IMG/VR virus record: IMGVR_UViG_3300027994_000001
Span: 57,776 to 121,775 of that record
Reading direction: 5' to 3' (one strand)
DNA: 64,000 nt
Source of the DNA: a virus
Lineage: Duplodnaviria; Heunggongvirae; Uroviricota; Caudoviricetes
The notes beneath the pieces were generated by a model, which saw only the letters and a program-made list of their open reading frames with translations, had not been told where the DNA came from and ran no database searches. Positions 35,200 to 37,304 of this stretch are shown here, piece by piece. Within the stretch, counting starts at the first letter, position 1. The number at the start of each line of letters is the position of its first letter. A program made the translations under genes and the position numbers.

Positions 35200-35269
35200 T
35201 TTATTTTAACTTGTTCTTGAATTCTTAAACACGTCTGGGTATAACTCCAGAGCCTCTTTTAAATCGTTT

Positions 35270-35632
35270 TCATTTTTCCACAGAAGGCGAGCAGGAACGA
35301 AGGAATGACACGAGGTAAAAGAACACAGAGAACAAACGGAACTCGTCCATATAGAACCAAGTATAATATTTTCTTTCATTCGTGTTTTTAAAGTTTGGAA
35401 TCCACCCTTTATTGTAAAATGCAGCCAACATAGCTTCTTGTTCATAATATTTTACATGTAAAGGGATATTTTTATAGAGTTCATCAAAATCCTTTTCTGT
35501 GGTTTTATGGTACTCGAGTACTTTTTGGAAGCTATTATAAACCTCTCTAAATACAATTCTATCGAAAGTAGATCTTTCTTTATCTATTTCAAATCCTTTT
35601 GGAACTTCAATTTTCAATTCTTGTGTTTTCAT
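35270..35632 (-). CDS. small protein carrying a second, degenerate DGR variable-repeat copy at its C-terminus (candidate secondary or decayed target)
   Basis: C-terminal FRLFSVFFYLVSFLRSCSPSVEK is encoded by VR2. The pre-VR segment KYYTWFYMDEFRL is paralogous to KYFPWWYLGKNFRL in the primary target. Confidence 0.5.
   Translation of the reverse strand: MKTQELKIEVPKGFEIDKERSTFDRIVFREVYNSFQKVLEYHKTTEKDFDELYKNIPLHVKYYEQEAMLAAFYNKGWIPNFKNTNERKYYTWFYMDEFRLFSVFFYLVSFLRSCSPSVEK
35279..35341 (-). repeat. VR2: VR-like repeat diverged from the TR at adenines and carrying two 1-nt insertions
   Basis: Hand-aligned to TR 36662..36722: about 20 substitutions, all at coding-strand TR adenines, plus two single-base insertions. 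It shares the GC-enriched 3' block CTCGCC(T)TCTGTG with VR1. Confidence 0.6.
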
Positions 35633-36584
35633 TTTCGTATTTATTTACTAAGTTTTTACTATTACAGTGGACTAACCAACTCTTATGATTTTTCTTTACT
35701 TTATTTTTAATATATTTTTTCTTAATTGACTTTCTTATCAGAGTATGTGTATGATAATGTTTATATCCCAAAAAATCAATGCTCCGTGCACTTACTGGAA
35801 AAACTTGATAATTTCCTTTTATTTCCAACTTTAGTTGTGTTCTCAGATAGTCTTGGATATTATAAAACCACTCCCATAATTGTTCTTTATTATCTGAAAG
35901 TAAAACCATATCATCACAATATTTGAAATAATATTTTACTTTTAAAACCTCCTTAATCCAATGATCAAAATATGTCAGATAGAAATTTCCAAAAAATTGA
36001 CTTGTGAAATTACCTAATGGAACTCCACTGTGAGAATCTATAATATCGTCTAATAAATATAGCAAATCATTATCTTTAAACTTTCGCCGTAACATTCCTT
36101 TTAATATCTCATTATCTATGTTAGGGAAAAATTTCTTAATGTCTAGTTTAAGGCAGTATTTTGTCCCCTCTGTGTCTTTCAATACCTTTCTTAATTTATA
36201 AGAAGCTTGGTGCACACCTCTTCCCTTCACACAACTATATGTATCAGCGGTAAAAACAGATACAAAAATAGGCTCTAAAATATTTAGTATGGCGTGGTGT
36301 ACAATTCGATCAGGATAGTAAGGCAATTGTGATATTGTTCTTTCTTTTCCATCGGATATTGTAAATACATTATATCTAGACGTTGTAAATTTTTTATCAC
36401 TTAAAGTTTTGTGTAAATTTAAAATATTATCTTCTTCATTCTGTAAATGTTTTATTACTCCGTATTGTTTTAATTTCCCTCTTCTTGCTTTCTTATCTGC
36501 TGACTGTAAGTTTTCAATGTTGATTATTTGCTGGTATAAATTATTGTGTCTTTTCATGCTCTGTGTATATAAACTCACTTTCAA
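35607..36584 (-). CDS. diversity-generating retroelement reverse transcriptase
   Basis: RT motifs LDIKKFFPNID, GVPLGNFTSQFFGNFYL (the DGR-specific [I/L]GxxxSQ in place of the retroviral QGxxxSP), YFKYCDDMVLL (YxDD) and IDFLGYK. About 325 aa, adjacent to a TR/VR pair. Confidence 0.85.
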   Translation of the reverse strand: MKVSLYTQSMKRHNNLYQQIINIENLQSADKKARRGKLKQYGVIKHLQNEEDNILNLHKTLSDKKFTTSRYNVFTISDGKERTISQLPYYPDRIVHHAILNILEPIFVSVFTADTYSCVKGRGVHQASYKLRKVLKDTEGTKYCLKLDIKKFFPNIDNEILKGMLRRKFKDNDLLYLLDDIIDSHSGVPLGNFTSQFFGNFYLTYFDHWIKEVLKVKYYFKYCDDMVLLSDNKEQLWEWFYNIQDYLRTQLKLEIKGNYQVFPVSARSIDFLGYKHYHTHTLIRKSIKKKYIKNKVKKNHKSWLVHCNSKNLVNKYENENTRIEN

Positions 36585-36661
36585 TTACTTTACTAACGAG
36601 TCTTTAAGGCTTTTATTTATTTTTTACCGAGAGGTAAAGTGTTTTTACTTATTTTAAAATC

Positions 36662-36722
36662 TACAGATGTGAGTAGGAACGTTGGAATTATTCGAGTTAT
36701 AGTTCACATTGTTCAAACGGAA
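36662..36722 (-). repeat. DGR template repeat (TR), 61 bp, intergenic between target stop and RT start
   Basis: Coding-strand read TTCCGTTTGAACAATGTGAACTATAACTCGAATAATTCCAACGTTCCTACTCACATCTGTA is rich in AAC/AAT codons. It matches VR1 at 47 of 61 positions; every mismatch is at a TR adenine. Confidence 0.8.
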
Positions 36723-36740
36723 GGGGTAAAAACACTTGTT

Positions 36741-37304
36741 TTAATTCATATAATCTTTCCAAATATCTTTAAACTGAGATGCTGAGTAATTTCCTAATTC
36801 GGAAGATTTGACACAGAGGCGAGAAGGAACGCAGGAACAATCCGAGTAATAGTTCACAGCGCCCAAACGGAAATTCTTACCTAAATACCACCAAGGAAAA
36901 TACTTATATTCGCTGTGATTATCCCAATCAAGTTCAATCCCATTATTTAGAGCCTTAGAAATAACTACAAGTTCTTGGCAAGCTACTACTTTTCTTTCTA
37001 AATTTGGTGTGTTTTTTAACAGCCTTAATTGAAGAACTTCATTATCTATCTCTCCCAACTGTTTACATGCATCCTCAACTGTCTTTATATCCTCCCAAGT
37101 GTCACGTACATCAAAAATCTCTTTAACAATGGGTAACTGCTCCGCTGTACAAGCTGTAATCATCTCGTTAATTTGTTTTTCTGTGAATTTTATTTCCGCG
37201 GAAAATGGATCTTCTGAGCCGAAAGCTTTTATTTTCTTCTTCCAAGAATCACAGGCAATATCGTGTATCTGTTTTAACTCTTCTCTGGTTATACTATTTT
37301 TCAT
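36741..37304 (-). CDS. DGR target protein (187 aa) with variable repeat near its C-terminus
   Basis: VR1 encodes FRLGAVNYYSDCSCVPSRLC, against the TR-encoded FRLNNVNYNSNNSNVPTHIC. The ORF stop lies 19 nt upstream of the TR on the coding strand. Confidence 0.75.
   Translation of the reverse strand: MKNSITREELKQIHDIACDSWKKKIKAFGSEDPFSAEIKFTEKQINEMITACTAEQLPIVKEIFDVRDTWEDIKTVEDACKQLGEIDNEVLQLRLLKNTPNLERKVVACQELVVISKALNNGIELDWDNHSEYKYFPWWYLGKNFRLGAVNYYSDCSCVPSRLCVKSSELGNYSASQFKDIWKDYMN
36812..36872 (-). repeat. DGR variable repeat VR1
   Basis: Ungapped 61-bp alignment to the TR at an offset of +150. 14 mismatches at + coordinates 36812, 18, 20, 24, 32, 33, 38, 39, 42, 48, 59, 60, 62 and 63, all opposite TR T on the + strand (A on the coding strand). 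Confidence 0.8.

What the first reader, a model, noticed from the sequence alone, without database searches (positions are those of the whole stretch)
35270..37304. Phage diversity-generating retroelement: RT, 61-bp TR and adenine-specific VR in a 187-aa target
- **RT:** ORF 35607..36584 is a reverse transcriptase with the DGR-diagnostic GVPLGNFTSQ motif and a YCDD catalytic box.
- **TR:** 78 nt upstream of the RT on the coding strand, in intergenic DNA, lies a 61-bp segment (36662..36722) rich in AAC/AAT codons.
- **VR1:** an ungapped copy (36812..36872, exactly 150 bp away) sits in the last 44 codons of ORF 36741..37304. The two differ at 14 of 61 positions, and every difference is a coding-strand A in the TR. 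Examples are TR AAC AAT to VR GGC GCT, AAC to TAC, AAT AAT to GAT TGT, and AAC to TGC.
- **IMH-like end:** the 3' end of the VR (CTCGCCTCTGTG) is more GC-rich than the TR end (CTCACATCTGTA), consistent with an IMH versus IMH* pair.

The cassette sits among replication and RNA-repair genes rather than beside an obvious tail-fibre gene, and the target is unusually small. No avd-like gene lies between target and TR. So this may be a non-canonical DGR whose diversified protein is not a classic receptor-binding tail fibre.
Basis: partly seen in the sequence, partly recalled or inferred. Interest (0 to 1): 0.92.

Follow-up and report, generated by a model that had tools for sequence, protein, structure and literature searches.

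The report
Phage retroelement hypermutating two small proteins
This is a genuine diversity-generating retroelement in a large uncultured phage. Instead of rewriting a tail fibre, it rewrites a short loop in two small sister proteins encoded among replication and RNA-repair genes, and one of the two is currently broken by a one-base insertion inside the rewritten stretch.

Summary
TR 36662..36722 and VR1 36812..36872 (minus strand) align without gaps, and 14 of 61 positions differ, all at TR adenines (P about 5e-10).

The RT (35607..36557) is closest to the Bordetella phage DGR RT: E 2.5e-48, against about 1e-12 for group II and retron RTs.

The finding as given does not describe these features:
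- **Second target.** A second VR (35285..35341) lies in a paralogous gene downstream of the RT. All 14 of its substitutions are at TR adenines. A +1 insertion at a TR 'AA' site truncates the protein to 120 aa, whereas 25 relatives are 134-157 aa.
- **Spacer RNA.** The TR-RT spacer is a conserved structured RNA related to Rfam RT-17.
- **No Avd.** No Avd is detectable in the 64 kb window.

The targets belong to phrog_11581, a large family with no Pfam model (about 3,800 cluster representatives). In about 30 of 33 viral contigs it sits beside an RT and a TR, always among replication and recombination genes. Confident predicted models match neither C-type lectin nor Ig folds.

A distant homologue is the published 'non-structural' second DGR target of LoVEphage, apparently the same phage as Quimbyvirus. 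This is therefore a real DGR and a variant of a known kind, of moderate interest. The function of the targets is inferred, not shown.

The parts
36741..37304 (-). Target gene 1 (187 aa, intact). It has a helical N-terminal part and a C-terminal module of about 120 aa that carries VR1. It belongs to phrog_11581.
   Evidence: ORF. phrog_11581 E 2.6e-23 and no Pfam or NCBIfam family. 55 homologues, hypervariable only at codons 148-158. AF2 model pLDDT 88.5.
36812..36872 (-). VR1, the variable repeat (codons F145-C164 of target 1).
   Evidence: Ungapped 61-nt match to the TR with 14 mismatches, all at TR adenines.
36812..36823 (-). IMH-like 3' end of VR1 (CTCGCCTCTGTG, 67% GC).
   Evidence: VR1 and VR2 share CTCGCC where the TR has CTCACA. 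Fixed VR-versus-TR differences of the same kind recur at this position in relatives. Function inferred.
36662..36722 (-). TR, the template repeat. It is non-coding and starts 18 nt after the target 1 stop. It has 19 adenines, mostly in seven AAY codons.
   Evidence: Codon analysis gives 15^7 x 4^2, about 2.7e9 peptides, over the nine codons upstream of the IMH-like end, and no stop codon is reachable (my arithmetic from the per-codon counts, whose printed product of 4.4e10 also counts the CAC and ATC codons). The TR is conserved (0 of 55 differences) between relatives whose VRs differ at 20-29% of positions.
36552..36641 (-). Structured RNA in the TR-RT spacer (two hairpins and an A-rich linker). 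It is related to Rfam RT-17 and is the presumed counterpart of the BPP-1 'Sp' priming region.
   Evidence: RT-17 scores 30.3 bits, full model length, E 4e-4, below the gathering score of 40.4. The homologous spacers of L024, L038 and L029 pass the gathering score. In 18 aligned spacers, 10 of 13 predicted pairs show compensatory changes.
35607..36557 (-). DGR reverse transcriptase (316 aa from ATG 36557; the mechanical ORF starts at TTG 36584). It overlaps the start of target 2 by 26 nt.
   Evidence: RVT_1 E 1.5e-16. phrog_1423 E 1e-108. Best solved relative is bRT of Bordetella phage (8ub7), E 2.5e-48, 168 bits, against 52 bits or less for group II and retron RTs. 47-54% identity to crAss-like phage RTs. 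LGNFTSQ and YCDD motifs. The equivalent of bRT Arg74 is conserved and the equivalent of Ile181 is Leu (my residue count on the alignment).
35206..35632 (-). Target gene 2, a paralogue of target 1, disrupted here. ORF 35270..35632 gives 120 aa with an aberrant tail. The normal C-terminus (SCHSFVPARLLWKNENDLKEALELYPDVFKNSRTS*) continues in another frame to 35206.
   Evidence: Removing one base restores a 141-aa protein colinear with the relatives. The other 25 family members are 134-157 aa. hhalign of the target 1 and target 2 families gives 99.7% probability over 106 residues. The same frameshift is present in two independent Logan assemblies.
35285..35341 (-). VR2, the second variable repeat. 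Its IMH-like end CTCGCCTTCTGTGG extends to 35278.
   Evidence: Its two halves (35318..35341 and 35287..35314) each match the A-to-N TR pattern exactly. There are 14 substitutions, all at TR adenines.
35315..35317 (-). Site of the +1 insertion in VR2. TR 'AA' (36698-36697) corresponds to 'TAC' here.
   Evidence: The insertion lies exactly at a pair of template adenines. Its origin as an RT error is inferred.

Best explanation
This is a complete diversity-generating retroelement without Avd, carried by a roughly 139-kb uncultured phage. Its layout is target 1 (VR1), TR, structured spacer RNA, RT, target 2 (VR2), all on one strand.

**Proposed mechanism**
1. The TR and spacer are transcribed, probably as the 3' extension of the target 1 message.
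2. The RT, helped by the RT-17-like spacer RNA that takes the place of the BPP-1 'Sp' priming region, copies the TR into cDNA and misincorporates at template adenines.
3. The cDNA replaces the VR of either target by homing. The 3' boundary is set by the GC-richer IMH-like end (CTCGCC...) that the TR lacks.

**Consequences**
- Nine codons (seven AAY, one TAT, one ACT) are randomised, which gives about 10^9 peptides, and no stop codon can arise.
- The randomised residues lie on the second strand of a beta-hairpin and the following loop of a small alpha/beta module.
- In this phage, target 2 carries a +1 insertion at a TR 'AA' site. This is most simply an error of the mutagenic RT. Because both flanks of VR2 are intact, the next homing event could erase it.

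**What is shown and what is inferred**
- Shown: the anatomy, the adenine specificity, the RT family, covariation in the spacer RNA, and VR-restricted hypervariability across relatives.
- Inferred: priming from the spacer, homing, activity without Avd, and the role of the targets.
- My best guess for the role (about 40%) is that the targets are soluble, early-expressed, intracellular binding proteins used in phage-host conflict.
For: - **Adenine-only mismatches** in both VRs: 14 of 14 each, and none at non-A positions.
- **RT family:** closest to bRT, E 2.5e-48, against about 1e-12 for other RT classes.
- **Spacer RNA:** hits RT-17, relatives pass the gathering score, and 10 of 13 pairs covary. 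RT-10 occupies the same position in BPP-1 (PMC5737381).
- **Conserved layout:** the same target 1-TR-RT-target 2 layout with adenine-only VRs occurs in L003, L004 and L009-L014. About 30 of 33 IMG/VR loci with this module have an RT, a TR and 2-3 VRs.
- **Divergence hotspots:** L009 and L010 are 95.8% identical overall, yet VR1 differs at 11 of 55 positions, VR2 at 16 of 55 and the TR at 0 of 55.
- **Entropy:** TR-adenine codons average 2.83 bits against 1.39 elsewhere (p = 2e-5).
- **No remote copies:** none in the window or in complete 141-143 kb relatives.
- **Non-structural context:** PNKP, Rnl1, nucleotidyltransferases, DEDDh and PD-(D/E)XK nucleases here. Distant loci have helicases, RecT, Sak4, ParB, Ant, a methyltransferase and HNH, and no tail genes among the listed families.
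- **Soluble proteins:** no transmembrane segment, maximum KD19 of 0.89.
- **Published precedent:** the LoVEphage homologue is a remote DGR target with 17 of 17 mismatches at TR adenines.
Against: - No population data are available. The three assemblies that carry this phage are 100% identical, VRs included, so ongoing activity in this particular phage is not shown.
- One target is broken.
- No Avd was found in 64 kb, and the best-studied DGR needs Avd.
- The window's spacer is below the Rfam gathering score (30.3 against 40.4 bits), and its single-sequence fold is no better than shuffles (z = 0).
- I saw no obvious hairpin downstream of either VR on reading the sequence.
- The role of the targets rests only on gene neighbourhood. 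In LoVEphage the same TR also serves a tail-collar fibre, so a virion-linked role cannot be excluded.
Confidence: 0.88

Rival explanations
1. The element is a DGR, but its targets play the classical role. They would be small virion-associated or secreted adhesins or receptor-binding accessories (for example fibre-tip or decoration proteins) that happen to be encoded outside the structural module.
For: - Nearly all characterised phage DGR targets are tail or adhesion proteins (PMC8144416, PMC12636319).
- In LoVEphage one TR diversifies both a tail-collar fibre and the homologue of this family.
- The VR ends with the same S.S..G/P-SRL motif as that fibre.
Against: - The neighbours are replication, recombination and RNA-repair genes here and in 16 distant loci, with no tail genes among the listed families.
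- There is no signal peptide-like or transmembrane segment.
- Similarity to the fibre is limited to the 38-aa VR.
- Profile-profile comparison with the fibre domain is null (probability 0.3% and 0.1%).
Confidence: 0.2
2. The cassette is a decaying, no longer active DGR. The VRs would be frozen records of past homing, and the frameshift in target 2 would be the first step of loss.
For: - The VR2 frameshift is fixed in three assemblies.
- There is no VR variation among the contigs that carry this RT.
- No Avd was found.
Against: - The RT reading frame is intact, with its catalytic YCDD and the LGNFTSQ motif.
- The TR, spacer RNA and both IMH-like ends are intact.
- There are no non-adenine differences between the TR and either VR (0 of 42 non-A positions in VR1; both halves of VR2 match the A-to-N pattern exactly), so the last homing events are recent relative to the neutral drift seen between relatives (about 4% between L009 and L010).
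- Relatives keep both targets intact and diversified.
Confidence: 0.12
3. It is not a DGR. The RT would belong to a retron, a group II intron or a defence RT, and the repeat would be a chance or recombinational duplicate.
For: Generic RT models for group II, Drt and retron families give sub-threshold hits.
Against: - All those hits are far below the curated cut-offs (group II 112 against 300 bits, retron 53 against 235, Drt3a 54 against 200).
- bRT is the best solved relative by more than 100 bits.
- The adenine-only pattern has P = 5e-10 and is repeated in a second VR and in about 30 related loci.
Confidence: 0.01

Closest known systems
Bordetella phage BPP-1 DGR (mtd-avd-TR-brt), the experimental prototype
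   Same: - The RT is homologous over its full length (E 2.5e-48 to 8ub7).
- Mismatches between the TR and the VR fall only at adenines.
- The VR lies near the 3' end of its target.
- The VR has a GC-richer 3' end than the TR.
[quoted passage not shown]
   Different: - There is no Avd gene.
- The TR is short (61 nt, against 134 nt in BPP-1 by my recollection).
- There are two targets flanking TR-RT instead of one upstream.
- The targets are proteins of 140-187 aa encoded among replication and RNA-repair genes, not a tail-fibre tip.
- The predicted VR module does not match the C-type lectin fold of Mtd.
DGRs of crAss-like gut phages (e.g. cr52_1, cr55_1, crAssphage LMMB)
   Same: - These are the closest named RTs (47-54% identity).
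- In cr52_1 the order is target-TR-RT, with only a 264-nt gap between the target and the RT and no Avd gene.
   Different: Their target is a tail protein annotated as resembling sulfatase or Mtd. The window phage shares no nucleotide similarity with any catalogued phage.
Second, distal DGR target of Quimbyvirus (apparently the same phage as LoVEphage) and similar Bacteroides prophages (Benler 2021 PMC8008677; Dahlman 2025 PMC12629997)
   Same: - The protein family is the same. LoVEphage QVQ57199.1 is 29% identical (E 6e-9).
- I confirmed that it is a DGR target, with 17 of 108 mismatches, all at TR adenines.
- It is also non-structural and encoded beside methyltransferases and an RtcB RNA ligase. 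That parallels the PNKP and Rnl1 neighbourhood here.
   Different: - In LoVEphage it is a remote secondary target of a tail-fibre DGR and carries a longer fibre-type VR (108 nt).
- Here the DGR has no fibre target at all and serves only two local paralogues of this family.
- Benler et al. describe the Quimbyvirus protein as containing a C-type lectin domain. I could not reproduce any such signal for this family.
Rfam RT-17 RNA (RF03020; Weinberg et al. 2017, PMC5737381)
   Same: - The match covers the full model length at the expected place, immediately upstream of the RT start.
- Three homologous spacers pass the gathering score.
   Different: - The window copy scores 30.3 bits, against a threshold of 40.4.
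- The 2017 paper assigned no function to RT-17. It linked only RT-10 to a DGR.

Membership tests
Diversity-generating retroelement | Reverse transcriptase of the DGR clade (motif 4 [ILV]GxxxSQ, YxDD) | tested here: met
   Best solved relative is bRT (8ub7), E 2.5e-48, 168 bits, with the next class at 52 bits or less. LGNFTSQ and YCDD are present. phrog_1423 E 1e-108.
Diversity-generating retroelement | TR/VR pair whose differences fall only on TR adenines | tested here: met
   VR1 has 14 of 14 at A, P = 5e-10. VR2 has 14 of 14 at A plus one inserted base at an AA site.
Diversity-generating retroelement | VR within the 3' part of a protein-coding target, TR non-coding and next to the RT | tested here: met
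   VR1 is codons 145-164 of 187. The TR lies in the 183-nt gap between target 1 and the RT.
Diversity-generating retroelement | IMH at the VR 3' end that differs from IMH* in the TR | tested here: met
   This is a sequence criterion only. Both VRs have CTCGCC where the TR has CTCACA (67% and 64% GC against 42%). The same fixed VR-versus-TR differences recur in relatives, for example CGCCTTTGC against CACCTATGC. Function was not tested.
Diversity-generating retroelement | Accessory protein Avd (or HRDC) | tested here: not met
   No Avd/PF05635 hit among all 83 gene-strand ORFs of 75-190 aa in the window. Nothing is encoded between target 1 and the TR. Avd is not universal: cr52_1, which has a closely related RT, also lacks it.
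Diversity-generating retroelement | Evidence of ongoing diversification | tested here: inconclusive
   The VRs are the divergence hotspots between close relatives while the TR is invariant, and hypervariability is confined to adenine codons. For this phage itself the three available assemblies are identical.
C-type lectin-fold DGR variable proteins (Mtd, TvpA type) | Sequence or fold match of the VR-bearing domain to a C-type lectin fold | tested here: not met
   - No Pfam, NCBIfam or PDB sequence hit for the window proteins or for 7 distant members.
- hhalign against the LoVEphage fibre VR domain gives probability 0.3% or less.
- Caveat: these are predicted models of a small domain.
C-type lectin-fold DGR variable proteins (Mtd, TvpA type) | VR at the extreme C-terminus of the protein | tested here: not met
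   23 residues, predicted as two helices, follow VR1. 24 residues follow the VR in the target 2 family.
Rfam RT-17 RNA (RF03020) | Score at or above the gathering threshold (40.4 bits) | tested here: not met
   The window scores 30.3 bits, E 4e-4, over the full model length. The homologous spacers in L024, L038 and L029 score 40.7-41.5 bits.
Rfam RT-17 RNA (RF03020) | Conserved secondary structure immediately upstream of an RT gene | tested here: met
   Two hairpins are predicted. 10 of 13 pairs show compensatory changes in 18 spacers. The match ends at the RT start codon.
PHROG phrog_11581 (function unknown) | Profile match | tested here: met
   Target 1 E 2.6e-23 and target 2 E 3.4e-5. 31 of 130 ORFs in 16 related loci match.
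Group II intron, retron or defence RTs (considered) | Score above the curated family cut-off | tested here: not met
   Group II 112 against 300 bits, retron St85 53 against 235, Drt3a 54 against 200, Drt2 51 against 390.

The most novel reading that the evidence does not exclude
The phrog_11581 module would be a third structural scaffold for DGR hypervariation, neither C-type lectin nor Ig. It consists of a helix, a beta-hairpin whose second strand and following loop are the VR, and two C-terminal helices. Whole DGR cassettes in many phage lineages would be dedicated to diversifying two or three paralogues of it inside the infected cell. These would work as an 'intracellular antibody' repertoire against variable host defence proteins, rather than for adsorption.
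Probability: 0.2. Interest if true: 0.8.

Novelty: new variant of a known kind. Interest (0 to 1): 0.5.

Why it matters
Phage DGRs are almost always discussed as tropism switches acting on C-type lectin tail proteins. This case shows a cassette devoted entirely to small non-structural proteins.

- **Size of the family.** The target family has about 3,800 cluster representatives at 50% identity and no Pfam model. In most sampled viral contigs it sits beside an RT and a TR.
- **A tractable system.** It offers short targets, a 61-nt TR, no Avd and a defined spacer RNA. That makes it suitable for asking what non-adsorption DGR targets do, and whether a DGR RT can work with its RNA alone.
- **A function for RT-17.** The result gives a likely function to the orphan Rfam motif RT-17.
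- **A cost of mutagenic homing.** The element provides a natural example of a target frameshifted at a template-adenine site.

None of this changes the known DGR mechanism.

Tried and rejected
- **Megablast of the cassette against 50,697 phage records:** no match, so no annotated close relative exists.
- **Fold searches:**
  - Foldseek against BFVD found only uncharacterised phage proteins.
  - The afdb50 library was unavailable.
- **Profile searches against PDB:** the target family and the LoVEphage fibre domain gave only chance hits.
- **hhalign of the fibre VR domain against both target families:** null. I could neither confirm nor derive a C-type lectin origin.
- **Roux et al. 2021 supplements:** the IMG identifiers of the related contigs do not occur in the held text. 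I cannot say whether these loci were in that catalogue.
- **Exact-sequence look-ups of target 1 and the RT:** these found only identical copies, so there are no natural VR variants of this phage.
- **Single-sequence folding of the TR plus spacer:** no better than shuffles. Only the comparative analysis supports structure.
- **Promoter and terminator scan:** uninformative. On reading the sequence I saw no convincing hairpin downstream of either VR.
- **A second apparent indel at the VR2 3' end:** I rejected it as real. The target 2 family keeps the same codon count there, so homology to the TR simply ends 6 nt earlier than in VR1.
- **A suspected second damaged VR2 in L012:** it is intact, with one non-adenine mismatch.
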